DNA from: Anaerolineales bacterium
GTDB lineage: Bacteria > Chloroflexota > Anaerolineae > Anaerolineales > Villigracilaceae
DNA: 64,000 nt
Direction: 5' to 3'
Assembly: GCA_016744335.1 (NCBI GenBank)
Contig: JADGEO010000008.1
Span: 15,736-79,735, forward strand
Of the stretch, positions 16,279 to 58,567 are shown piece after piece (position 1 is the first letter of the stretch; the number at the start of each line of letters is the position of its first letter). The notes beneath the pieces are model-generated. The model did no database searches, was not told the DNA's origin, and saw only the letters and a list, made by a program, of their open reading frames with translations. A program made the position numbers and the translations under genes.

Positions 16279-16423
16279 GATGAAGAACCGAGTTCACTCT
16301 TATTTTGGGCTTGGGTGCTGAATCCCGAGCCTTTTCTTGGCGTGAGCGGAAAAAAGTTCACGCCAAGAAAAGGTTGCTTAAGGGCACTCAAGTAGAAGAT
16401 GCGCGCGGTGCGGTTCTTCATCC
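16278..16423 (+). repeat. structured intergenic element, copy C (CTTGAGTGC-core family)
   Basis: Three nested stems are visible. P1 is GGATGAAGAACCG (16278-16290) / CGGTTCTTCATCC (16411-16423). P2 is CTTGGGTGC (16310-16318) / GCACTCAAG (16384-16392). P3 is a perfect 15-bp stem, 16331-16345 / 16358-16372. Confidence 0.7.
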
Positions 16424-16475
16424 ATCTTAACTTTTTCTTGACTTAAGATTTTTCTAGTCTTATGGGGCTAAACGT

Positions 16476-24657: not shown

Positions 24658-24819
24658 GGGGATGAGATGCACGCGGGACGCTCGCGTTTTTGGCTTGGTG
24701 CTTGCGCCCAAGCTGGGGATGTGGGACGTACGTTTCTACGCTATATATGTTTACGTCGAGATCCTGTTGACGATGAGCACTCAAGTAGATGTTACGCGCG
24801 TTGCGGTTTTTTATCATCC
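24658..24819 (+). repeat. structured intergenic element, copy D (CTTGAGTGC-core family)
   Basis: It starts GGATGA and ends TCATCC, like copy C. The 3' part, GCACTCAAGTAGATGTTACGCGCGTTGCGGTTTTTTATCATCC, aligns closely with copy C (16384-16423). Confidence 0.6.
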
Positions 24820-24843
24820 TAAATTTGTACGGTGATTTTTGTG

Positions 24844-43480: not shown

Positions 43481-44230
43481 TTACTTCTCCAACTCCCACC
43501 CATTGTCCACAGGTAAATCAAGATAAAAACGCGTGCCTTTCCCTTCTTCGCTCTCAAAGGTCAGTTTGCCGTGATGATCTTGAACAATGCCAAGACTGAT
43601 TGAGAGTCCCAGCCCTGTACCCGTAGTGCGATCTTTGGTGGTGTAAAAAGGATCGAAAATTCGTTCTCTAATTTCAACTGGGATGCCCGCTCCGTGATCT
43701 TCAACGGTTGTGCGTAGCCATCTTCGACCTTCTTTTTCAAATAGTTTCACACTTATATTGATGATCTTGTCTGGGTTATATTCAGGATAACGCTCATTGA
43801 GGGTATCTCGGGCGTTGGTTAGCAAGTTCATCAGCACCTGTTGAATTTGCTGGCTGCGACATTTGATCTTAGGGAGGTCATTGGGGACATTTACCTCTAA
43901 TGTGATTTGATCCCGCTTGATAATTGTACGGATCAGAGTGAGTGTGCCGTTCATGATGTCAACCATTTGAGCTGGGCTGTGGGATTGCTTTTCCTGGCGG
44001 GCAAAGGTCAGCAAGTTGTGCACGATCTCTGCTACACGTTTGGTTTCATGAATTATTTCAGAGGAAAACTCGCTTAATTGCTTTTGGCTTGGCTCCAGAC
44101 GTTCACCAATCAACTGAGCATAGTTCATGATGCCCATGATAGGGTTATTGATTTCATGAGCTACACCACCAGCCAGTGTGCCAATTGATTCGAGTTTCTG
44201 TCCATGGCGCAGATGCACTTCCATTTGTTG
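43481..44230 (-). repeat. shared transmitter cassette, copy 5
   Basis: It is the closest partner of copy 4 and of the decayed copy at 47985-48472. Confidence 0.9.
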
Positions 44231-47984: not shown

Positions 47985-48472
47985 TCATTCATCTTTCATC
48001 TCTACGCACCAATTATTGTCCACCGGTAAGGCAAGATAAAAACGCGTGCCTTTCCCTTCTTCGCTCTTAAAGGCCAATTTACCGTGGTGATCTTGAACGA
48101 TACCGAGACTGATAGAGAGACCTAATCCCGTTCTTGTAGCACGTTCTTTGGTGGTGTAAAAAGGAACAAAAATACTTTCTCTGATTCTAAAGGGAATATC
48201 TGCCTTAAAATCGTTCGTAGCTATCTTCGACTTTCTTTCTCGAAGAGATTTACGCTCACGTCATAATTTTGTCTGGGTCATACTCTGGGTTGAGGGTATC
48301 ACGGGCAAAGGTCAGTAAGTTGTGCACGATCTCTGCTACGCGTTTGGTTTCATAAATTATTGCAGAGGAAAACTTGTTCAATTGCTTCTGGCTTAGGTCT
48401 AGACGCTCATCAATCACCTGAGCATAGTTTATGATGCCCATGATAGGGTTATTGATTTCGTGAGCTACGCCC
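47985..48472 (-). pseudogene. decayed, 5'-truncated sixth copy of the shared kinase transmitter cassette
   Basis: It aligns with the 3' end of kinase E (43481-44190) but has several indels and an internal deletion of roughly 190 nt. Similarity stops abruptly at ~48471, inside the H-box (AHEINNP). Only a 61-aa ORF fragment survives. Confidence 0.85.
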
Positions 48473-48699
48473 CTCTTACATCTTTAACAATATATTCGCT
48501 GTCAATGACAATTACATTTTTGTTAATACTGTCTGAAAATAGCATTGGTTTTCTTTGAGCGTATCCTTTGTTTGTACTTGCTCTATTTTATCTGCTATCT
48601 CTTAAACATCTATCTTTACTATAGCATATTTAGCTTGTAAGAAATATATTGATTAGATGACAAAAGCTTTCCTTTTTCTTGGATAAAAAAACCGCTTCG

Positions 48700-48850
48700 C
48701 ACTTGCCCTCAACTTGGGTGCCGATATTTGATGTTCTCTTGGCGTAAACAGGGGCAAGGCGTTCACATCAAGATTCTGTTTGGGGTTTGCACCCCAGCCT
48801 AAAACACGTATGCCAAGCCTGCCGAAGTCCGCACGATGTAGGTTTCCATT
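48700..48850 (+). repeat. structured intergenic element, copy E (CTTGAGTGC-core family)
   Basis: P2 is CTTGGGTGC (48713-48721) / GCACCCCAG (48789-48797). P3 is TCTTGGCGT (48737-48745) / ACATCAAGA (48765-48773). The core AGGCGTTCACATCAAGATTCTGTTTGGGGTTTGCAC is nearly identical to copy F. Confidence 0.65.
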
Positions 48851-48900: not shown

Positions 48901-51129
48901 CTATTCACCCATTGCTACTCGAAATCCAAAATCATACCAGTATGATGGCGCCATTCTATAGCGCGCTGAACAGCGCGCATATTCGTAACTCATAATAAAA
49001 GAGCCTCCCCGCAATACACGGTATTTCCCAATTTTAGGACCTTTGGGGTCTCTTTCTATAATTTGGGTACGTTTTTTATATTCCTTAGTATTAAACCAAT
49101 CAGAGCACCATTCCCAGATATTTCCACTCATGTCAACGCATCCGTATGGGCTATCGCCTTGTGGCGAAAAATGACCAAGAGGTGTTACTCTTCCTATTTT
49201 TCTTTCAGCTGTATTGCAATACTTTGTGTTGAACTGATTTCCCCATGGATAAAGACGCCCATCTGTGCCTCGTGATGCTTTTTCCCACTCTGCTTCGGTA
49301 GGTAATCGATAGTTTTTATTAGTTTGCTCGCTAAGCCATTCACAATACTCGTTAGCGGCTTTCCATGTGACATTTACTACTGGGAAGTCGCCTTTATCTT
49401 TAGGAAAGTTATGGTTTTGCCAGCCAACTGGTTGCTCTAATTTTACATCTCTAATAAATGCTTGATATTCATGATTGGTGATCAGGTATTTGCCAATACG
49501 ATAATCTGAAAGATTGACCGTATGTTGTGGTGTCTCACGCCGTATTCTTTCGAGCGATATTCCTGAATTTATGAGATCTTGAACTTGTTTTTGAGTGCTT
49601 CCCATGAGGAAATTGCCTGCGGGGATATGTATTGTTTGAGGTTCAAAAAAAATTCGCGGATGGGTTATTGATATATTTTTGTTCATCTCAACGTTACGCG
49701 TTAGGGTGAAGTAGCTTCTGATCTCGTTTGGTGTCAGATCGCTAAAGTTAACATCTGGCATATTGAGAGGATGAAGTGTTAAGATGCGATGTACAGCTTC
49801 ATTGGTAGAAAATGAGGCTACAGTTGGGTTTAGTTCTACTTTTCGTTTTCTGTCTGGCTGAGAGTTATCTTGAGAGTTATCTTGAGAGGCTGGTAAAAAA
49901 TCAACAGTGTAATAGTTTTCTAAATCACGTAAAAAACGCGGAGATTCTTTTAGCCTGCTGTATAGCTCAGGTGCTACGGCTTGAATTGTAACTATTTTGG
50001 CTAAACGTGCTGGTTTGATTTGGTGTTTTGATTGAGTAAAACGTTTTTGTGCTAAGTTCCAGAGCAATAGAAAAACATTTACTGTGCGTTTCACGAGGCG
50101 TGGGTTATCTTCTAGGCCCATTGCAAAAATTTGGGGACAAGCAGGGTGGGGCCATTCAGGTACCAGAGAATTAACAAAATTAGTTGAGATTTGCCTATCT
50201 ATAGGTGGGATTTGAAATGGAAGTTGAATGATTTTTTCAAGATAACGTGTTCCTTTAAGAAGGTTATTATATTCATTTGGTTTTTGTTGAATATCGTTGT
50301 TTCCATTTTCGAAATCAGCGTATTTGATTTCAATACCTTGTGTAATAATACTTTGGTCTGCACCTATGACAAAAACACAGCCAGGTGTATCAAGAAAGAG
50401 TTTGATAGCCTCTAGCGTTTCTACTGCTTTCTCTGGAAGGCAACGATCTAAATCGTCAATAAAAATAACTAACCGTAAATTCTTTTTGATTAGATATTCA
50501 TCTGCTAATTCTGTAAAATGTTTCTGAAATTGCTCTGAAAATCTTACCTGCTCAATATGTTCATTGACACGCTCTCGTTGAATTGAAGAGAAAATTTTGG
50601 TAAGTGCTTGTTCGGAATGTTCCGTATTGCGCAGTTCTTTTAATAGGTCAGAGACAATTGTGCCGCCCGGTAAAATTGATAACCCTACCTGTACTGCACT
50701 TTCAGCGGCTCCATATCCTAGCTTATCCCACTCAACTGTGATACCGCCGAGTTTCTCTACCGTTACGGGTTGATAGAGTGCCATTTTCAAGCGTTCAAGT
50801 TTTTCAATATCTTCAGGTTTATCATTAGGGATTGCCTCTTTGAGTGATACTAAAGTGCTTAAAAGGAATGCTCTCCAAACTGTCTCTTCTTTATCATACA
50901 TCCATGCGTTGAACCATGTTGTGCGAAAAGATTTGGGCAATCTTTTGCGCATCATAAGCATTAACGATGTTTTTCCTGAGCCCCATGTTCCAAAAATGCC
51001 AATTGTTAATGGGGTGTCTGTAGTAGGAGAAATGATAATATCGACTAAGGAATCAACGTAAGGTGTAAAATCAAGTGTGTCTTTATCTGTAGGGAAATCA
51101 TTTAATGTATATGCTTGTGAAGGTTTCAT
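48901..51129 (-). CDS. KAP-family P-loop NTPase fused to a C-terminal FGE/SUMF1-like (formylglycine-generating-enzyme fold) domain
   Basis: The Walker A is IGIFGTWGSGKTSLM, and the KAP-type Walker B region is VIFIDDLDRCLPEKAVETLEAIKLFL. The C-terminal FGE-like motifs are PAGNFLMGS, YRLPTEAEWEKA, GNIWEWCSDWF and RVLRGGSF. The start overlaps the stop of the upstream kinase (ATGA). Confidence 0.85.
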   Translation of the reverse strand: MKPSQAYTLNDFPTDKDTLDFTPYVDSLVDIIISPTTDTPLTIGIFGTWGSGKTSLMLMMRKRLPKSFRTTWFNAWMYDKEETVWRAFLLSTLVSLKEAIPNDKPEDIEKLERLKMALYQPVTVEKLGGITVEWDKLGYGAAESAVQVGLSILPGGTIVSDLLKELRNTEHSEQALTKIFSSIQRERVNEHIEQVRFSEQFQKHFTELADEYLIKKNLRLVIFIDDLDRCLPEKAVETLEAIKLFLDTPGCVFVIGADQSIITQGIEIKYADFENGNNDIQQKPNEYNNLLKGTRYLEKIIQLPFQIPPIDRQISTNFVNSLVPEWPHPACPQIFAMGLEDNPRLVKRTVNVFLLLWNLAQKRFTQSKHQIKPARLAKIVTIQAVAPELYSRLKESPRFLRDLENYYTVDFLPASQDNSQDNSQPDRKRKVELNPTVASFSTNEAVHRILTLHPLNMPDVNFSDLTPNEIRSYFTLTRNVEMNKNISITHPRIFFEPQTIHIPAGNFLMGSTQKQVQDLINSGISLERIRRETPQHTVNLSDYRIGKYLITNHEYQAFIRDVKLEQPVGWQNHNFPKDKGDFPVVNVTWKAANEYCEWLSEQTNKNYRLPTEAEWEKASRGTDGRLYPWGNQFNTKYCNTAERKIGRVTPLGHFSPQGDSPYGCVDMSGNIWEWCSDWFNTKEYKKRTQIIERDPKGPKIGKYRVLRGGSFIMSYEYARCSARYRMAPSYWYDFGFRVAMGE
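49861..49889 (-). repeat. 12-bp tandem duplication inside the KAP-FGE linker (encodes SQDN-SQDN-SQ)
   Basis: AGAGTTATCTTG occurs at 49861-49872 and again at 49873-49884, followed by a partial third unit. Confidence 0.8.
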
Positions 51130-53078
51130 AGTGTTTTTGCTTTCTTCAAACGAACCGTAAAAATTGTGCCTTCATTGGGCCTGCTTTCTACGGTGATTTC
51201 TCCGCCCATTTCTTTGATGATTGAGCTTACAATATAAAGCCCTATGCCGCTTCCCGGAATTTCGGCAAGGGTCACGTTTTTAGCACGGAAAAAACGCTGG
51301 AATAAATAGGGGATATCCTCTTCGGGGATGCCAACGCCATTGTCTATAATCGCGATATTTGTATGGGTTTTGTTCTCTGACACTTCAATTTTCACTTCGC
51401 TACCATTCGGAGAGAACTTGGTGGCGTTGGTGAGTAAATTAATAAAGACTTGTTGCAATCCACTTTTATCGCCTAAGGCGGTATAAGTTTTATTTCGCCC
51501 GCTAAGGCGTAATGATATTTGCCGCTTTGCAACAATCGGTTGAACAGATCGCATAGATTCTCGTAAGACGGGGAGTAATGAAAGCGGCTCAGATTTGATT
51601 TCCATCATACCGCTCTCTAATCGTCCGGCAGATAATAGGCGGTCTATGAGGGTTTTCTGACGCTTAAGCTCAGCGTTTAGGGTGTGCCAGTATTTTCTTA
51701 GTTCTTCTCTTGAGCCACCTTCTTGAATGAGTTCTACCATCAGCATTGCGGCGGTTAAGGGAGTGCGTAGTTCATGAGAAGCACGGTTGATAAAATCTGA
51801 TTTCATTTCATCTAGTTTGGCTTGTTCTGTAATATCTCGAATGATAATGATAGCTTCTTCTGCATAAATAGGTGAGAGTTGGGCTTCATAAACGCCTTTT
51901 GCATAAGGAAGGCGAAAGGTGGTCGCTTTTTGAGGTGAAGCGAAAGTGTTTTTATTCTCTTCTCCTAAAAATTGTGAGACAATTTCTTCGGGAAAAGTCT
52001 CTTTTAGTTTCCTTCCATAAGCTAAGTCTCGATGAATATGAAGGGGATGCTCTGGTTTCGCACTGTAATCTAATATATTTCCTTTAATATCAATACGAAT
52101 GATTAGGTCTGGCAGGGCATCGACTAAAATTTGGTTTCGTGTTTCATTGAGCCGAATGGTTTCTTCATAATGATTGCGCTGTAGTACGGCATTAATTAAG
52201 TTGACCGCGGTTTGAATGGCATCTACCTCAGATTGTGACCACATTATTCTTTGCTCGTTAAAAAAGCCTATGTAGCCGCGTGTTCTAAATGCCCCGTCAA
52301 TAGGGAATGAAATAAATGATATATTCTGAGGGGTGGCGCTATCTTTTAATCTGACAGAATGCACTTGCCGATGGGAATCTAGTGTTTCGAGTGTGTTGTT
52401 CTCAAAGACTTTAGTTATATCTATTTTTTTAGATTTCCAATTTTCCCAAATATATTTTTTTTGCATTTGGGCTGGTTTTAAAGTGCGATCTAGTGCAAAA
52501 ATAGTGACGCAAGATATATTCATGATGCGCCCTAAAGCTTCTAACATAGAGGGGATTTTCCTCTCAATACTCGAAGACTGCAAGAGTTTTTCAGTTGCCT
52601 GGCTAATTGTAGAAAGAATTAAGGCATTTTGTTTTAGTATTCGCTCTGTGTTTTTCTTAACCGAAATATCACGAGCAATGCTTTGAATATAGGCGGGCTT
52701 ACCATTATCGTAAATAATTGAGGTGCTTATTTCTACAGGAATTGTGGGTCCACCCTTGCATTGAAGAACTCGCTCTTGAAGTTGCGCCCCTTGTATATTT
52801 CTTATATCATTATTGAGTAACGCCCCTTGCGAAACCACTTCGTTTACTGGTTTGCCTACCAATTCATTTTCTTTATACCCCAATAAGTTTAACGCCTGCT
52901 GGTTGGCAGTAATATAGCGAAAATCAAGCCCGATAATAAAGATAGCCTCCCCCGTTTGCTCAAATAAGGCACGATACGATAACTCATCGTCCCAGCCTTT
53001 ATCTAATGTGGGCAATGCAGATTTTTCTTTTTTTTCTTTAGCAAAATACTCACTTAGGGGAATAGTTTTTGCTTCCAT
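51126..53078 (-). CDS. cytoplasmic sensor histidine kinase (PAS - GAF-like - PAS - HisKA - HATPase)
   Basis: The H-box is SHELRTPLTA, the N/G boxes are LLTNATKFSP and DNGVGIPEED..GSGIGLYIV, and PAS units are present (e.g. ARDISVKK, IRDITEQ). No TM segments were seen. Confidence 0.9.
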   Translation of the reverse strand: MEAKTIPLSEYFAKEKKEKSALPTLDKGWDDELSYRALFEQTGEAIFIIGLDFRYITANQQALNLLGYKENELVGKPVNEVVSQGALLNNDIRNIQGAQLQERVLQCKGGPTIPVEISTSIIYDNGKPAYIQSIARDISVKKNTERILKQNALILSTISQATEKLLQSSSIERKIPSMLEALGRIMNISCVTIFALDRTLKPAQMQKKYIWENWKSKKIDITKVFENNTLETLDSHRQVHSVRLKDSATPQNISFISFPIDGAFRTRGYIGFFNEQRIMWSQSEVDAIQTAVNLINAVLQRNHYEETIRLNETRNQILVDALPDLIIRIDIKGNILDYSAKPEHPLHIHRDLAYGRKLKETFPEEIVSQFLGEENKNTFASPQKATTFRLPYAKGVYEAQLSPIYAEEAIIIIRDITEQAKLDEMKSDFINRASHELRTPLTAAMLMVELIQEGGSREELRKYWHTLNAELKRQKTLIDRLLSAGRLESGMMEIKSEPLSLLPVLRESMRSVQPIVAKRQISLRLSGRNKTYTALGDKSGLQQVFINLLTNATKFSPNGSEVKIEVSENKTHTNIAIIDNGVGIPEEDIPYLFQRFFRAKNVTLAEIPGSGIGLYIVSSIIKEMGGEITVESRPNEGTIFTVRLKKAKTL

Positions 53079-53096
53079 ATAGACCTCAGTAACTTA

Positions 53097-54203
53097 TTAA
53101 TTGGGTAACATGGCTACTACATGGCAACCGTGTTTGCTATCTATAATTTTCACGTATCCTTTATTCATTTCAAAAAATGCACGTGCGATATTTAATCCAA
53201 CACCAAGCCCTTCGTGTTCTCTTGTATCGCCTTGGCTAATCTGATAAAAGCGGTCAAAAACTTTTTCTCTTAAATCGGCGGGGACGCCAATCCCGTTATC
53301 TTCTACACTAATGCCGATGCCATTTTCAAGAGATTTTATGATTAAATTCACTTTTCCTTTATTCGGACTGAACTTGAAGGCATTATCAACGAGATGCAAT
53401 ATGACATGGGAAAATTCTCGGCGGGGAACAAAAATCTCATCTTCTGTAAGTAGCTTGGCGTTAAAGTCTAAATCTTTTTCTTTATATCTTTCTAAACGTT
53501 TTTCTAATAAATTAATAAGGTGCGTTTTCACAGCCAGCGGTTGTCTTATGTCGTTCAAGTTTCCTTGGTCTATATTAGAAAGCAAAATTAAATCAGTAGA
53601 AAGAGATTCCAAGCGATTGGCATTAGATAATGCCATGCGAATAAATTGTATTTTATCTTCTGGGTTTATAACTTTATTGTTGACTGCCAGCTCTAAGGGC
53701 ATGAGGATATTGGTAAGTGGGGTACGCAATTCATGATGAAAGTTTTGAAGAATTTCCTGTTTTAGTTTATTTAACTCTTCTTCAGCTTGCTTTTTCATTT
53801 CTTCGCGTCCGCGGGTTTGTTCAAAGTGAACTCGTTGTAAAATTGCATCAATGCGGGCAAGAAGTTCCTCTGTTTCAAATGGTTTTACAATATAATCATC
53901 TGCGCCCTCTTCGAAGCCTCGCAAGCGGTCTTCTTTCTCTGTTCGTGCGGTTAGAAAAATAAAAGGAATCGTGGCGAACTTAGCATCTTCGCGTATTATT
54001 TTACGCATTTCAAAGCCATCTAAGAAGGGCATCATCACATCTGACAGCACCAAATCAGGGGCATTCTTTTTCACCTCTTCTATCCCTTGGCGTCCATCTT
54101 TTGCCGTAATTACGCGATATCCATGGCGTTCTATTTTTGCCTTTAATCCCAATAAAATTGAAGGATCATCGTCAATAACCAATATGGTTTGTTTAGCTTT
54201 CAT
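53097..54203 (-). CDS. REC-fused histidine kinase (REC - HisKA - HATPase)
   Basis: The REC domain has VIDDDPS, LSDVMMPFLDG, LTART and KPF. The H-box is HHELRTPLT and the HATPase motifs are VDNAFKFSP and DNGIGVP..GLGVGLNIA. Confidence 0.9.
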   Translation of the reverse strand: MKAKQTILVIDDDPSILLGLKAKIERHGYRVITAKDGRQGIEEVKKNAPDLVLSDVMMPFLDGFEMRKIIREDAKFATIPFIFLTARTEKEDRLRGFEEGADDYIVKPFETEELLARIDAILQRVHFEQTRGREEMKKQAEEELNKLKQEILQNFHHELRTPLTNILMPLELAVNNKVINPEDKIQFIRMALSNANRLESLSTDLILLSNIDQGNLNDIRQPLAVKTHLINLLEKRLERYKEKDLDFNAKLLTEDEIFVPRREFSHVILHLVDNAFKFSPNKGKVNLIIKSLENGIGISVEDNGIGVPADLREKVFDRFYQISQGDTREHEGLGVGLNIARAFFEMNKGYVKIIDSKHGCHVVAMLPN

Positions 54204-54561
54204 GGGGCAATTCTCCTAAGGATTGAGTTACCCCATAAGATTTATCGACTAAAGAAGATTTGTTGTTTATAAACATAATTTGGATATTTGCCAAGGCAAT
54301 TAAATCTCCCGAATTAAGCACACAGCGAATAATTTTTTTCCCGTTGACATAAGTTCCCCCAGTCGATTGCATGTCATAAAGCACGTATTGTTTTCCTTCA
54401 AGGATTATTTCAGCATGTTCACGTGATAAAAGAGCCTCGTGAAAAACAAGATCGTTCTCTAAATTACGCCCCAACGTAGTTTTCCTTTTATTTAATGGGA
54501 CTACCTGTTTGTTGACCACAAGTGATGCCTGGTGCGAATATAGGTAGGATGAATTGTTCAT
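54193..54561 (-). CDS. FHA-domain protein
   Basis: This 122-aa ORF has the FHA core TTLGRNLENDLVFHEALLSREHAEIILEGKQYVLYDMQSTGGTYVNGKKI. A GAGGA SD precedes the start, and the gene overlaps the REC-kinase start by 11 nt. Confidence 0.85.
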   Translation of the reverse strand: MNNSSYLYSHQASLVVNKQVVPLNKRKTTLGRNLENDLVFHEALLSREHAEIILEGKQYVLYDMQSTGGTYVNGKKIIRCVLNSGDLIALANIQIMFINNKSSLVDKSYGVTQSLGELPHES

Positions 54562-54606: not shown

Positions 54607-54743
54607 AGTTGACGCTCTTAATTTGAACTTGAGTGCAGATAGTGAGCATTTTCTTAGTGTAAGCTGTGTGAGGCGTTCACACTAAGATTCTGTTGGGGTT
54701 TTTGCACGCCTGCTAAAAACACGTACGGTACGGAGTTTCATCC
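54607..54743 (+). repeat. structured intergenic element, copy F (CTTGAGTGC-core family)
   Basis: It has TTGAACTTGAGTGC at 54623-54636. P3 is a perfect stem, TCTTAGTGT (54652-54660) / ACACTAAGA (54679-54687). It ends in TCATCC (54738-54743), like copies C and D. Confidence 0.65.
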
Positions 54744-54950
54744 AAATTATTTAGCTTAAAAAAACTATTCCTACATATGTTATTCTGACAGAGAATAAAA
54801 AAAACACCAATAGGGGGATTCCCTACGCATAAAATAAGGGAAACGCTTTGATTTAGATTGGCGCATCCCCGATGATTTCAATCATCGGTTCAAGCAAGAA
54901 TTATCAGGCTAATTCTTGCTGAACCTGAATTTTACTCCCAATTAGTTTTT

Positions 54951-55721: not shown

Positions 55722-55763
55722 CGGATTGCGGATTGCGTAATTTTTTACGCAATCCGCAATCCG
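55722..55763. repeat. perfect 19-bp inverted repeat built from tandem GGATTGC heptamers
   Basis: The arms are CGGATTGCGGATTGCGTAA (55722-55740) and TTACGCAATCCGCAATCCG (55745-55763), separated by a TTTT loop. It lies between the tpiA stop and the next gene start, and no U-run follows on either strand. Confidence 0.8.
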
Positions 55764-56528: not shown

Positions 56529-58346
56529 TTAGGGGATTTGGTTTAGGGCATTGTCAATTTCGTTTGCTATCCAGTCGGGGATGTTGGGGTTCTCCCAGAT
56601 AGATTCTAAAATTCCGCGGGCTTCATCGTATTCGCCCTGTTGAATGTGCATTTCTGCTTTTAGTAGGCTGGCTTCAGGGGAATAAGGGGCATTTCTTCTT
56701 GCTTCTCCTAAAAGGAGAAGAGCTTCTTTCTTGTCACCATGATAAAACTCATGGCGGGCTTGAGCGACTAGCATAAGAGTAGGGTCTGTGTTACCTATTC
56801 TTTCAAGGAGATTCTCTAAATTTTTAGATATGGGTAAGGCAGATGTTTTGTACACGCTTTCACCAAGTGCTTCTCGCAAATATATATGTTCTTCCCCGTT
56901 ATTCGCAGGCATATTTTCTATTGCATGTAGAAGCATCATGGCGGCACCGCTCCAATACTCTCTGTCCATAAATTCGTAGCCCGCACCTTCGTAAAGATCA
57001 ATATCGTCCCCGCCTATTCTTTCTATAGCTATAATCTCTTTTTGAATCTCTTCTCTATTTCCTGGGGTTTCTTCGAGTAGTATTATAGCAAGTTCTAAAT
57101 GGGCATAGGGATTATCAGGTTCATCATCTACCCATTCCCTAGCCTCTTCTAGTCTATCTGTTTCTTCTTGTCCTATAGGGGGAAGAGGTGCATCGGGGCG
57201 ATTCAATTCTTCGGAGGCTTCGTAACCATTTTCTATATTTTCAGCCTCTGATAAACGATCAAAAAGTCCATCTTGGGCTATTGCGTTTAAGAAGAAAAAA
57301 AACGCAATAAGCAGAAGAATGCCAGCAGTAACAAAAACCCAAACTTTAGATTTTTTCTTTGATTTTTCTGTAATTTTTGTTGTTTTTTGGGCTTCAATTG
57401 CTTCTAATTTTTCGGGCGCAAGGGTAGCGGCTTCTGCTCTATCCAAAACATCAGGTGGTGGAGGTATAGGGATATTTTGAATAGGCGAGGTCATTGTGGC
57501 ATCTGCCATATCTACATTAGAATCGTCCCATGCTTTTTTGAAAGCGATATTTAATGCTTCTACACTTTCGTAACGATCTTCACGCTCTTTAGCAAGAGCT
57601 TTTAGCAAGACTCTCTCTACTTCATCGGGCACATTTGGGTTAACCAAATGAGGCAAAGGTAGAGGCGAATAAATATGGTCGTGAATAATAGAGAAGGGAG
57701 TATCAGAACTAAATGGCACTTTTCCTACCACCATTTCATAAAGCATCACGGCAAAAGAATAAATATCGGTACGATTGTCGAGATCTTTCTCCCCTTTTGC
57801 CTGCTCAGGTGAGATATATTGGGGTGTGCCCATAATCATGTCAGAAGAAAGGGTAGATTCACCCGATTGGGCAATCCGCGCCAAGCCGAAATCGGCAAGA
57901 TAGGCTTTACCATCTTTTGCCATAATCACATTCGAGGGCTTAATATCACGGTGTAAAATGCCTTGCTGATGTGCATGTCCTAAACCTGCGCCAACAGCTT
58001 CAACCACTTTCCATACTTCATCTACCTCTAAGCGACCTTTATTTAAATCTGCCTTGAGCGTATCCCCTTCTATATATTTCATCACCAAATAAGGTTGTTC
58101 ATCGTGCTCAGCAAAATCATAAACAGGCACGATATTGGGGTGTTCTAATCTAGCAACAAGCCGTGCTTCACGCTGAAAACGCGCTAAAAAGTTAGGGTCT
58201 TCTAAAAAGGCAGGGTGCAAAACCTTAAGCGCAACATAACGGTCTAAATTGGCATGATAGGCTTTATATACCGTTGCCATACCACCGCGCCCCAGCTTTT
58301 CCATTACTCTATAAGAGCCTACATTTTCGCCTTCATTGAAAGCCAT
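56529..58346 (-). CDS. Hanks-type Ser/Thr protein kinase with a TM segment and an extracytoplasmic helical-repeat (TPR-like) C-terminal region
   Basis: Kinase motifs are present: GRGGMATVYKA, HRDIKPSNV, DFGLA, GTPQYISPE. The TM segment is VWVFVTAGILLLIAFFFFL. I placed the start at MAFNEGENVGSYRV (ATG 58346) rather than the ORF-track start 58469. Confidence 0.88.
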   Translation of the reverse strand: MAFNEGENVGSYRVMEKLGRGGMATVYKAYHANLDRYVALKVLHPAFLEDPNFLARFQREARLVARLEHPNIVPVYDFAEHDEQPYLVMKYIEGDTLKADLNKGRLEVDEVWKVVEAVGAGLGHAHQQGILHRDIKPSNVIMAKDGKAYLADFGLARIAQSGESTLSSDMIMGTPQYISPEQAKGEKDLDNRTDIYSFAVMLYEMVVGKVPFSSDTPFSIIHDHIYSPLPLPHLVNPNVPDEVERVLLKALAKEREDRYESVEALNIAFKKAWDDSNVDMADATMTSPIQNIPIPPPPDVLDRAEAATLAPEKLEAIEAQKTTKITEKSKKKSKVWVFVTAGILLLIAFFFFLNAIAQDGLFDRLSEAENIENGYEASEELNRPDAPLPPIGQEETDRLEEAREWVDDEPDNPYAHLELAIILLEETPGNREEIQKEIIAIERIGGDDIDLYEGAGYEFMDREYWSGAAMMLLHAIENMPANNGEEHIYLREALGESVYKTSALPISKNLENLLERIGNTDPTLMLVAQARHEFYHGDKKEALLLLGEARRNAPYSPEASLLKAEMHIQQGEYDEARGILESIWENPNIPDWIANEIDNALNQIP

Positions 58347-58567
58347 GAATTTGTCCTTAGTTGGATAGTTTTGTGATTTGATTTCTAAATTATAGCCCAA
58401 TTCAAAAGAATTATGTTTTCTAGAGGGTGCCTGATTCCAAATTTCATTTCTCCAATTTAGATATTGCACAGGCTAATATTTGAGCTTCTTTTCAAGCAGA
58501 TTAAAACTAATTATAGGCGCAAAAGCTGTGAAGAGGTTGAGAGAGCACCTTCTTAGCGATACTATCA

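What the first reader, a model, noticed from the sequence alone, without database searches (positions are those of the whole stretch)
48901..54561. FHA / REC-kinase / PAS-GAF kinase / KAP-NTPase::FGE-like fusion: a translationally coupled four-gene operon
Four minus-strand genes are packed as one unit. The FHA stop overlaps the REC-kinase start by 11 nt (54193-54203). The REC-kinase and the PAS-GAF kinase are 18 nt apart. The kinase stop and the KAP start share ATGA (51126-51129). The last gene fuses a KAP-family P-loop NTPase (GIFGTWGSGKTSLM; FIDDLDRCLPEK...LEAIKLFL) to an FGE/SUMF1-fold domain (GNIWEWCSDWF, RVLRGGSF). I saw no TM helices in the KAP part, although many KAP NTPases carry them. 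In the FGE-like domain, the region that holds the catalytic Cys pair in bona fide FGEs reads RGGSFIMSYEYARCSARYR, with only one Cys. The domain is therefore more likely a binding or sensor module than a formylglycine generator. From memory, KAP NTPases and FGE-like domains recur in NTPase-centred conflict/defence systems described by comparative genomics. A KAP-FGE protein wired to a phosphorelay plus a phospho-Thr reader is not a combination I recognise. The operon is also bracketed by the most similar pair of the intergenic element family (copies E and F).
Basis: partly seen in the sequence, partly recalled or inferred. Interest (0 to 1): 0.8.

Follow-up and report, generated by a model that had tools for sequence, protein, structure and literature searches.

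The report
Signalling operon plus frozen DGR-type sensor
The four tightly packed genes are real, but they combine a conserved three-gene signalling module with an unrelated, usually solitary KAP-ATPase/lectin-fold "sensor" gene whose relatives are hypermutated by retroelements, and the pairing occurs only in this lineage.

Summary
The coordinates, overlaps and domain calls all check out, apart from the GAF label, which no search supports.

The idea of a KAP-FGE protein wired to a phosphorelay does not hold as a conserved system:
- **The trio stands alone.** FHA/REC-kinase/PAS-kinase is a conserved three-gene module in other Anaerolineae (53-76% identity, same order). KAP-FGE never follows it there.
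- **KAP-FGE stands alone.** It belongs to a family of thousands that are normally solitary. The query's closest clade sits in a conserved housekeeping neighbourhood (RCK channel, tRNA methyltransferase, sortase).
- **No kinase or FHA enrichment.** A census of 137 neighbours of 42 family members shows DGR reverse transcriptase, Avd, extra lectin-fold targets and STAND NTPases as the recurrent partners.
- **The C-terminus is a DGR variable-region scaffold.** Relatives have adenine-specific template repeats, and the family shows the DGR residue spectrum.
- **Here the variable region is frozen.** There is no template or RT in 64 kb, the region is shared within the clade, and it is identical in three samples.
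- **The setting favours chance adjacency.** The window holds 10 kinase cores.

Verdict: a new member of a known kind (NTPase-lectin-fold putative sensors), placed next to the trio in this lineage only. Interest is modest.

The parts
54193..54561 (-). FHA-domain protein (122 aa), first gene of the conserved trio
   Evidence: Pfam FHA 1.8e-17. The GR / SxxH / NG phosphothreonine-binding motifs are visible in the sequence. Orthologues at 63-73% identity precede REC-kinase orthologues in L168-L173.
53097..54203 (-). REC-HisKA-HATPase_c hybrid kinase (368 aa); overlaps the FHA gene by 11 nt
   Evidence: Pfam. The family is conserved at 60-78% identity across Anaerolineae. The same FHA overlap is seen in L168-170.
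51126..53078 (-). Cytoplasmic PAS-HisKA-HATPase_c sensor kinase (650 aa), third gene of the trio
   Evidence: Pfam PAS/PAS_4/PAS_9, HisKA, HATPase_c. Orthologues at 53-72% identity directly follow REC-kinase in L168-L173. GAF is not supported.
48901..51129 (-). KAP P-loop NTPase fused to an FGE/C-type-lectin-fold domain (742 aa); start overlaps the kinase stop (ATGA)
   Evidence: Pfam. More than 3,400 homologues, many of them full-length KAP+FGE proteins. AF2 model pLDDT 77, pTM 0.70. Foldseek matches FGE structures and the RdrA ATPase.
50152..51069 (-). KAP NTPase module (aa 21-326), with Walker A GTWGSGKT (50968-50991) and Walker B FIDDLDRC (50443-50466)
   Evidence: Pfam KAP_NTPase 124.7 bits against a cutoff of 20. 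Both motifs are invariant in 100 homologues. The hydrophobic, low-confidence insert at aa 123-169 lies where other KAP proteins carry TM helices.
48913..49641 (-). FGE-sulfatase / C-type-lectin-fold domain (aa 497-739), non-catalytic
   Evidence: Pfam 1e-51. PDB hits to ToxD, CalU17, FGEs and the DGR target TvpA 2y3c. The catalytic Cys pair is absent.
48928..48996 (-). Frozen DGR-type variable region (aa 712-734, IMSYEY-ARC-S-A-R-YRMA-P-SYWYDF)
   Evidence: These positions have more than 3 bits of entropy in the family, with an N/D/Y/S/G and R/W/G spectrum. Only 3.8% of residues are ones that adenine mutagenesis of AAC cannot produce, against 27.6% elsewhere in the domain. The region is homologous to verified VRs in L026, L034, L035 and L004. 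It is invariant in L087 and L174 and shared within clade P0001-P0009.
48711..48810 (-). Intergenic repeat copy E downstream of KAP-FGE; the surrounding long imperfect hairpin (48685-48825) ends in a U7 run and may terminate the operon
   Evidence: The terminator role is an inference only.
54626..54725 (-). Intergenic repeat copy F upstream of FHA. A terminator-like hairpin for the upstream gene lies at 54810-54826.
   Evidence: The repeat is not found upstream of FHA in orthologous trio loci.
48009..48471 (-). Decayed histidine-kinase fragment downstream of the operon; marks local rearrangement
   Evidence: Repeat families D1, D2 and D9. An H-box and HATPase_c remnant are readable. tblastx matches the L170 kinase.

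Best explanation
The cluster is a composite of two independent units.

(1) FHA/REC-kinase/PAS-kinase is a conserved, translationally coupled Anaerolineae signalling module. The cytoplasmic PAS kinase and the receiver-gated kinase form a phosphorelay, and a small FHA protein reads phosphothreonine.

(2) Directly downstream, sharing ATGA with the kinase stop codon, sits a KAP-NTPase/C-type-lectin-fold gene. It belongs to a very large family of putative ligand ('antigen') sensors. In this family the C-terminal binding surface is normally rewritten by diversity-generating retroelements.

In this gene and its closest clade the variable region is frozen. No template repeat or reverse transcriptase lies nearby, and the sequence does not vary between populations.

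The protein most likely works as a soluble NTP-driven switch. A fixed ligand bound on the lectin-fold surface would control the KAP ATPase state or its oligomerisation. This step is inferred from the STAND-CLec analogy and the RdrA-like fold. The FGE fold is not an enzyme here.

The gene is probably co-transcribed with the trio in this organism, which is inferred from the 4-nt overlap. The pairing is a lineage-specific relocation into a kinase-rich region, not a conserved four-component machine.
For: - Trio orthologues occur in the same order without KAP-FGE in three other lineages.
- KAP-FGE homologues at 55-66% identity are solitary in unrelated or housekeeping contexts. Synteny of RCK channel, KAP-FGE, TRAM methyltransferase and sortase recurs in L002, L081, L175 and L176.
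- phmmer found no FHA within 6 kb in 84 loci.
- The Pfam census of 137 neighbours is topped by RVT_1 (5), bAvd (5), FGE-sulfatase (4) and NACHT/nSTAND (4). No kinase, receiver or FHA family is in the top 25.
- TR/VR pairs have adenine-specific mismatches: 15/15 in L034, 15/17 in L026, 14/16 in L035. DGR RTs are adjacent. L004 (45% identical to the query) has its template just downstream.
- The family VR shows the DGR residue spectrum and is scrambled even between proteins more than 90% identical elsewhere.
- The query clade is different: VR identity 0.53 at 0.66 identity elsewhere, against 0.13 for other pairs.
- No template repeat or RT motif in the window. No VR differences in L087 or L174.
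- Catalytic cysteines are absent. Walker A and B are invariant.
- The window holds 10 kinase cores and 10 REC domains.
Against: - The ATGA overlap and the absence of an obvious internal promoter imply co-expression, which is compatible with a real functional link in this lineage.
- The sister homologue P0002 (66% identity) also has a sensor kinase/receiver gene 52 nt upstream. That kinase is not orthologous.
- A DGR-active relative (L034) has kinase-REC-REC directly upstream.
- Only 64 kb of the genome was visible, so a remote DGR cannot be excluded on sequence grounds alone.
- Whether the VR was once diversified and then frozen, or was never diversified, is not resolved.
- No experimental function is known for any KAP-CLec protein.
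Confidence: 0.68

Rival explanations
1. This is a genuine lineage-specific four-component system. The frozen-specificity KAP-CLec protein has been co-opted either as a ligand-sensing input to the FHA/His-kinase phosphorelay or as its regulated output. The FHA protein could, for example, dock onto a phosphorylated KAP-CLec or kinase.
For: - Translational coupling through the ATGA overlap.
- No promoter-like site just upstream of the KAP start.
- The arrangement is stable in three samples.
- The sister homologue P0002 is also directly downstream of a sensor kinase.
- CLec variable domains fused to signalling kinases are known in cyanobacteria (PMC7517822).
Against: - No conservation: the trio exists without KAP-FGE, and KAP-FGE exists without the trio.
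- The kinase next to P0002 is not orthologous.
- The local density of kinase genes makes chance adjacency likely.
- A kinase fragment and repeats flank the gene, indicating rearrangement.
Confidence: 0.2
2. The KAP-FGE gene is still an active DGR target, served in trans by a DGR located elsewhere in the genome, outside the 64-kb window.
For: - Many close family members have scrambled VRs without an RT within 10 kb, so remote targeting seems common in this family.
- Remote targets are documented in the literature (PMC7517822).
Against: - The VR is identical in three independent samples, while 17 ordinary SNPs occur elsewhere in L087.
- The VR is shared by descent across clade members that are only 59-66% identical.
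- 2 of the 11 AAC-type VR positions (4 of all 17 VR positions) hold residues that adenine mutagenesis of AAC cannot produce.
- There is no template in the window.
Confidence: 0.05
3. The C-terminal domain is an enzyme (a formylglycine-generating, EgtB/OvoA-like or PvdO-like oxidase), as the public annotations suggest ('SUMF1/EgtB/PvdO family nonheme iron enzyme').
For: - A strong FGE-sulfatase Pfam match.
- Sub-threshold NCBIfam hits to EgtB, OvoA and PvdO.
- Source annotations.
Against: - Both catalytic cysteines of FGE are replaced.
- All NCBIfam enzyme models score far below their cutoffs, at 65-79 bits against 350-500.
- The would-be active-site segment is the hypervariable patch of the family, which is incompatible with a conserved catalytic site.
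- Relatives are verified DGR targets.
Confidence: 0.03

Closest known systems
DGR-diversified NTPase-CLec 'putative antigen sensors' of multicellular bacteria (Dore et al. 2024 PNAS, PMC10907252; FGS-domain conflict systems of Kaur et al. 2020 eLife, PMC7159879)
   Same: The architecture is the same: a central P-loop NTPase followed by a C-terminal FGE/C-type-lectin fold carrying the VR scaffold. That paper explicitly mentions KAP NTPase as an alternative to STAND NTPases, and filamentous Chloroflexi among the hosts. Relatives of the query have RT, Avd and adenine-specific templates.
   Different: This gene has no RT, Avd or template repeat nearby, and its VR is static and shared within its clade. 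It has no N-terminal effector or EAD domain; a relative, P0103, has TIR. Its clade normally sits in a housekeeping syntenic block rather than a defence island.
Treponema denticola TvpA / Bordetella phage Mtd type DGR variable proteins
   Same: A C-type-lectin/FGE fold with the variable residues displayed at the C-terminal end. TvpA (2y3c) matches the query domain at 1.1e-16.
   Different: Those are surface or tail-fibre proteins without an NTPase, and they are actively diversified.
Formylglycine-generating enzyme (SUMF1 and bacterial FGE)
   Same: The same fold by sequence (1e-22 to 7e-27) and by structure (Foldseek 3e-11, TM about 0.63 on the target). The structural Cys pair equivalents (C596, C720) are kept.
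   Different: Both catalytic, copper-binding cysteines are absent. That segment is hypervariable in the family.
KAP-family defence NTPases: QatA (Qat system), PifA, PDC-S20; also the RdrA ATPase of RADAR by fold
   Same: N-terminal P-loop module: PADLOC QatA 3e-44, PifA 8e-24. The Foldseek match to RdrA is 2e-7 over about 450 columns.
   Different: Only the NTPase module matches. NCBIfam QatA scores 182 bits against a cutoff of 600. There are no QatBCD or RdrB partners and no TM helices.
CLec variable domains grafted onto signalling proteins in cyanobacteria (Vallota-Eastman et al. 2020, PMC7517822)
   Same: This is a precedent for lectin-fold ligand-binding modules feeding phospho-signalling. 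It also documents non-diversified 'VP homologues' alongside active targets.
   Different: There the CLec is fused within the same polypeptide to Ser/Thr kinases. Here it is a separate KAP-NTPase protein that merely neighbours His-kinase genes.

Membership tests
KAP family P-loop NTPase (Pfam PF07693) | Profile match above the curated threshold, with Walker A and Walker B motifs | tested here: met
   124.7 bits against a cutoff of 20. GTWGSGKT and DDLDRC are invariant in 100 homologues.
KAP family P-loop NTPase (Pfam PF07693) | Transmembrane helices inserted in the P-loop domain; seen in many but not all members (from my knowledge of the family description) | tested here: not met
   The maximum Kyte-Doolittle 19-residue mean is 1.39. 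The insert at aa 123-169 is hydrophobic but low-confidence in the AF2 model.
Formylglycine-generating enzyme (catalytic FGE) | FGE-sulfatase fold | tested here: met
   Pfam 1e-51. Foldseek to human and bacterial FGE at about 3e-11.
Formylglycine-generating enzyme (catalytic FGE) | Pair of catalytic (copper-binding) cysteines | tested here: not met
   6s07 'LCHESYC' aligns to the query 'IMSYEYA'.
DGR variable protein (active target) | C-terminal VR on a CLec scaffold homologous to verified VRs | tested here: met
   The RGGSx6ARCxxRx4Px6GFRV scaffold aligns to the VRs of L034, L026, L035 and L004.
DGR variable protein (active target) | Cognate template repeat with adenine-specific mismatches | tested here: not met
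   No 60-nt segment of the window reaches 60% identity to the 180 nt at the gene's 3' end. The rest of the genome was not visible.
DGR variable protein (active target) | DGR reverse transcriptase and Avd in the neighbourhood | tested here: not met
   No GNxxSQ...YxDD motif in any frame of the window. Relatives have RVT_1 and bAvd.
DGR variable protein (active target) | VR differs between closely related strains or populations | tested here: not met
   L174 is identical. The 17 SNPs in L087 all lie outside 48928-48996.
Qat anti-phage system (QatA) | Full-length QatA equivalog score and QatBCD partner genes | tested here: not met
   NF041923 scores 182 bits against a cutoff of 600, over the N-terminal half only. 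The neighbours are kinases.
NTPase-centred conflict system with effector (STAND/NLR-like logic) | Sensor plus NTPase plus an effector or effector-associated domain | tested here: inconclusive
   Sensor and NTPase are present. No effector domain is detected in this protein. A TIR fusion exists in relative P0103.
Two-component phosphorelay (the two kinases) | HisKA H-box, HATPase_c N/G boxes, and a receiver domain with the acceptor Asp | tested here: met
   Pfam matches above cutoff. HELRTP H-boxes, the DDD...SDVMMP...T...K receiver residues and the DNGxG / GxGxGL boxes are readable.
Two-component phosphorelay (the two kinases) | Demonstrated phosphotransfer between the partners, and a cognate output response regulator | not testable with these tools
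   No DNA-binding or other output regulator is encoded in the operon.
FHA phosphothreonine reader | FHA profile match and conserved GR / SxxH / NG binding residues | tested here: met
   Pfam 63.9 bits against a cutoff of 20.7. GR, SREH and NG are visible in the sequence.
   The arrangement is seen only in the source organism (L087, L174).

The most novel reading that the evidence does not exclude
A receptor that was once hypermutated by a DGR has been domesticated. Its variable region became fixed on one ligand, and in this lineage (and perhaps its sister, P0002) the gene moved behind sensor kinases. It now serves as a dedicated ligand-sensing NTPase input, or a gated output, of an FHA/His-kinase phosphorelay. 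This would be an immune-type receptor turned into a housekeeping signalling component.
Probability: 0.12. Interest if true: 0.65.

Novelty: new member of a known kind. Interest (0 to 1): 0.33.

Why it matters
As a proposed new signalling/defence system the finding is weak, because the combination is not conserved.

What is worth keeping:
- **Misannotation.** A very large Anaerolineae family is publicly annotated as 'formylglycine-generating enzyme / nonheme iron enzyme'. It is really a KAP-ATPase with a DGR-type hypervariable lectin-fold binding site.
- **Likely remote targeting.** Most members lack an adjacent retroelement, yet their VRs are scrambled even between near-identical proteins. This suggests remote DGR targeting on a large scale.
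- **Repeated freezing.** The variable region has become fixed at least twice. The window's clade then behaves like an ordinary, vertically inherited gene.

These points could guide experiments on what NTPase-CLec 'antigen sensors' do. The conserved FHA/REC-kinase/PAS-kinase trio is also flagged as a distinct, uncharacterised Anaerolineae signalling module.

Tried and rejected
- **Rfam:** a scan of the whole window gave no hit at gathering thresholds.
- **Metagenome scan:** using the single protein returned almost only stand-alone FGE domains, because of the WEWCSDWF pattern. It added one useful locus, L088.
- **GAF domain:** not found in the 650-aa kinase by Pfam or by PDB sequence search.
- **Repeats E and F as a conserved leader or mobile-element ends:** they are 74% identical and absent upstream of FHA in orthologous trio loci. 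Their folding energy is not better than shuffles (z about -0.8), so this was left as a side note.
- **QatA, PifA, RADAR membership:** rejected. Only the NTPase module matches, scores are below cutoff, and there are no partner genes.
- **Kinase upstream of P0002's KAP-FGE:** tested for orthology to the trio. It is not orthologous; identity is 29% over the catalytic core only.
- **Source contig:** the 95.7-kb NCBI contig could not be retrieved beyond the window, so a remote DGR in the same genome was not searched.
Full report
**Observation.** ORF listing confirms four minus-strand genes exactly as described: FHA 54193-54561, REC-HisKA-HATPase_c 53097-54203, PAS-HisKA-HATPase_c 51126-53078, and KAP-FGE 48901-51129. 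The junctions are an 11-nt FHA/REC-kinase overlap, an 18-nt gap containing GAGG, and an ATGA stop/start overlap. Pfam supports every domain call except GAF. A PDB sequence search of kinase residues 140-425 also found nothing. None of the four proteins has a convincing TM segment. Two independent metagenome assemblies (L087, L174) carry the same four genes at 99.7-100% identity, so the arrangement is not an assembly artefact.

**The KAP-FGE protein.** Walker A (GTWGSGKT) and Walker B (FIDDLDRC) are intact and invariant in 100 homologues. PADLOC and NCBIfam match only the NTPase half to QatA, PifA and PDC-S20, far below the QatA cutoff (182 against 600 bits). The AF2 model (pLDDT 77, pTM 0.70) matches FGE structures with its C-terminal domain. 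Its N-terminal approximately 450 residues match the RdrA ATPase ring of RADAR. Residues 123-169 lie between the Walker motifs, where many KAP proteins carry TM helices. This stretch is hydrophobic and conserved (GLSxxPGG) but modelled with low confidence. Aligned to T. curvata FGE, the catalytic 'LCHESYC' corresponds to 'IMSYEYA'. Both catalytic cysteines are therefore missing, and the one remaining Cys is the structural one.

**Is the four-gene linkage conserved? The KAP-FGE side.** The protein has more than 3,400 database homologues. The best 120 are all near-full-length KAP+FGE proteins at about 50-66% identity, mostly from Anaerolineales.
- Pfam-annotated contexts of homologues at 55-66% identity show no FHA, and no kinase or receiver gene next to KAP-FGE: P0003, P0009, P0007, P0010, P0011 and the genome locus L002. 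The nearest are 2.7-4 kb away, in L083 and L084.
- A housekeeping synteny recurs instead: Castor/Pollux-type RCK channel, KAP-FGE, TRAM tRNA methyltransferase, sortase (and ThrRS).
- In 84 loci, phmmer found no FHA within 6 kb. A kinase or receiver lies directly upstream only in L034, L017 and L070.
- A Pfam census of the two nearest ORFs on each side of 42 KAP-FGE genes (137 proteins) is led by RVT_1 (5), bAvd (5), AAA_22 (5), FGE-sulfatase (4), SMC_N (4), NACHT (4) and nSTAND3 (4). FHA, HisKA, HATPase_c and Response_reg are absent from the top 25, which means at most 2 members each.
- The one partial exception is P0002 (66% identity, sister to the query by VR similarity). It has a large hybrid sensor protein 52 nt upstream. 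That protein is not orthologous to the window's kinases.

**Is the four-gene linkage conserved? The trio side.** The REC-kinase belongs to a family conserved at 60-78% identity. In three further lineages the order FHA, REC-kinase, PAS-kinase recurs with the same tight spacing:
- L168-170: identities to the window's FHA, REC-kinase and PAS-kinase are 73, 76 and 72%.
- L171: 73, 70 and 68%.
- L172-173: 63, 62 and 53%.

What follows the trio there is an IS element and another kinase, an unrelated ORF, or YjbQ. It is never KAP-FGE. The trio is thus the conserved unit. KAP-FGE is a separate unit that ended up behind it in this lineage. The window itself contains 10 kinase catalytic cores and 10 receiver domains. 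A decayed kinase fragment lies immediately downstream of KAP-FGE (48009-48471). This is a rearranging, kinase-dense region where adjacency to a kinase is expected by chance.

In the alignment of homologues everything is conserved up to GNxWEWC.DWF. The last approximately 30 residues are then hypervariable on a fixed scaffold, RGGSF-x6-ARC-x-x-R-x4-P-x6-GFRV.
- More distant relatives (25-35% identity) sit next to DGR reverse transcriptases (GNLTSQ...YVDD). They have template repeats whose mismatches to the gene's 3' end fall on template adenines: 15/15 in L034, 15/17 in L026, 14/16 in L035 and 20/30 in L057.
- L004, 45% identical to the query, has such a template just downstream of its stop codon.
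- Within the 120 closest homologues the variable positions have more than 3 bits of entropy. They show the DGR spectrum: N/D/Y/S/G/F from AAC, and R/W/G at two positions as expected from AGG.
- Residues that adenine mutagenesis of AAC cannot produce make up 3.8% of these positions, against 27.6% in the rest of the domain.
- Pairs that are more than 90% identical elsewhere have unrelated VRs, for example P0053 and P0069 at 91% against 6%.

This matches the class described by Dore et al. 2024 (PMC10907252), who list KAP NTPases among NTPase-CLec DGR targets in multicellular bacteria, including filamentous Chloroflexi. It also matches the FGS-domain conflict systems of Kaur et al. 2020 (PMC7159879).

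**The window's copy is not being diversified.**
- No segment of the 64 kb resembles the gene's 3' end, and no RT motif exists in any frame.
- The query and its eight nearest relatives (P0002-P0009, 55-66% identical) share an alignable VR, I[LM]....[FY]R[LM]..YW.DF. Their mean VR identity is 0.53, against 0.13 for other pairs of similar divergence.
- They carry more residues outside the DGR spectrum.
- The VR codons are identical in L174 and L087, although L087 has 17 scattered, mostly transition SNPs elsewhere.
- A second frozen group exists in the family (P0035 and others).

Whether the clade lost diversification or never had it is not resolved. The scaffold homology and the nested second group favour loss.

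**Mechanism.** Shown:
- An intact P-loop.
- A non-catalytic lectin-fold domain with a fixed VR.
- Tight coupling to the upstream kinase gene.
- A complete H-box, receiver and FHA residue set in the trio.

Inferred:
- The KAP-CLec protein is a soluble NTP-dependent switch whose state is set by ligand binding at the former VR surface. This is by analogy with STAND-CLec sensors and the ring-forming RdrA fold.
- The PAS kinase and REC-kinase form a relay modulated by the FHA protein.
- A Hanks-type kinase two genes upstream (56529-58469) could supply phosphothreonine, but it is not conserved next to the trio elsewhere.
- Functional coupling of KAP-CLec to the relay is possible in this lineage (about 20%) but has no comparative support.

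**Verdict.** The object is a new member of a known kind, a KAP NTPase-CLec protein of the DGR-target class, here with a frozen VR. It has been placed behind a conserved but uncharacterised signalling trio in this lineage only. Interest is modest.

Noticed in passing
window 48009-48471 (minus strand): The 'intergenic' DNA downstream of KAP-FGE is a decayed histidine-kinase fragment, with a HEINNP H-box and a HATPase_c C-terminus. It is 90% identical over 170 nt to the kinase gene at 43998-44167.
   Followed up: partly
window 18500-46000 and 51126-54203: This is a signalling-gene island. There are 10 kinase catalytic cores and 10 receiver domains in 64 kb, including five tandem paralogous kinases whose 3' ends repeat at 29.2, 31.7, 35.6, 38.9 and 43.5 kb.
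   Followed up: partly
window 48711-48810, 54626-54725, 16356-16433, 24749-24826: An intergenic repeat family with at least four copies in both orientations. Copies E and F share a central hairpin with compensatory changes. There is no Rfam hit and the fold z-score is only about -0.8. The long hairpin around copy E (48685-48825) ends in a U7 run and may terminate the operon.
   Followed up: partly
window 55722-55763: A perfect 19-bp-stem palindrome (CGGATTGCGGATTGCGTAA-TTTT-TTACGCAATCCGCAATCCG) lies between tpiA and the membrane-protein gene. It looks like a bidirectional terminator.
   Followed up: no
window 56529-58469 (minus strand): A Hanks-type Ser/Thr kinase with TPR repeats lies two genes upstream of the FHA gene, embedded among glycolysis genes (gap, pgk, tpiA). 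It is a candidate source of the FHA ligand but is not conserved next to the trio elsewhere.
   Followed up: partly
L168-L173 (trio orthologues): FHA/REC-kinase/PAS-kinase is a conserved, apparently uncharacterised three-gene module of Anaerolineae. No output response regulator is encoded alongside it. ECF sigma/anti-sigma pairs lie nearby in L171 and in L172/L173.
   Followed up: partly
L002, L081, L175, L176 (L083 partly): There is conserved synteny of Castor/Pollux-type RCK channel, KAP-FGE, TRAM tRNA(U5) methyltransferase, sortase (and ThrRS) around the frozen-VR clade. This is unusual for a gene family otherwise tied to DGRs and conflict systems.
   Followed up: partly
proteins P0035, P0050, P0052, P0058, P0061, P0089: A second, independent group of KAP-FGE proteins has a frozen VR (VR identity 0.88-1.0 at 77-82% identity elsewhere).
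   Followed up: no
protein P0103 (888 aa): A TIR-KAP-FGE fusion. It is the only close homologue seen with a recognisable effector domain, which supports an immune-type logic for at least part of the family.
   Followed up: no
L034 8300-13800 (Chloroflexi bacterium CFX5): A DGR-active KAP-FGE target has a kinase and two single-domain receiver genes directly upstream on the same strand. An RT and a template repeat lie downstream.
   Followed up: partly
close KAP-FGE homologues (for example L084, L083, L003, L008): Many family members have scrambled VRs but no RT or template within 10 kb. This implies widespread remote (in trans) DGR targeting in Anaerolineae.
   Followed up: no
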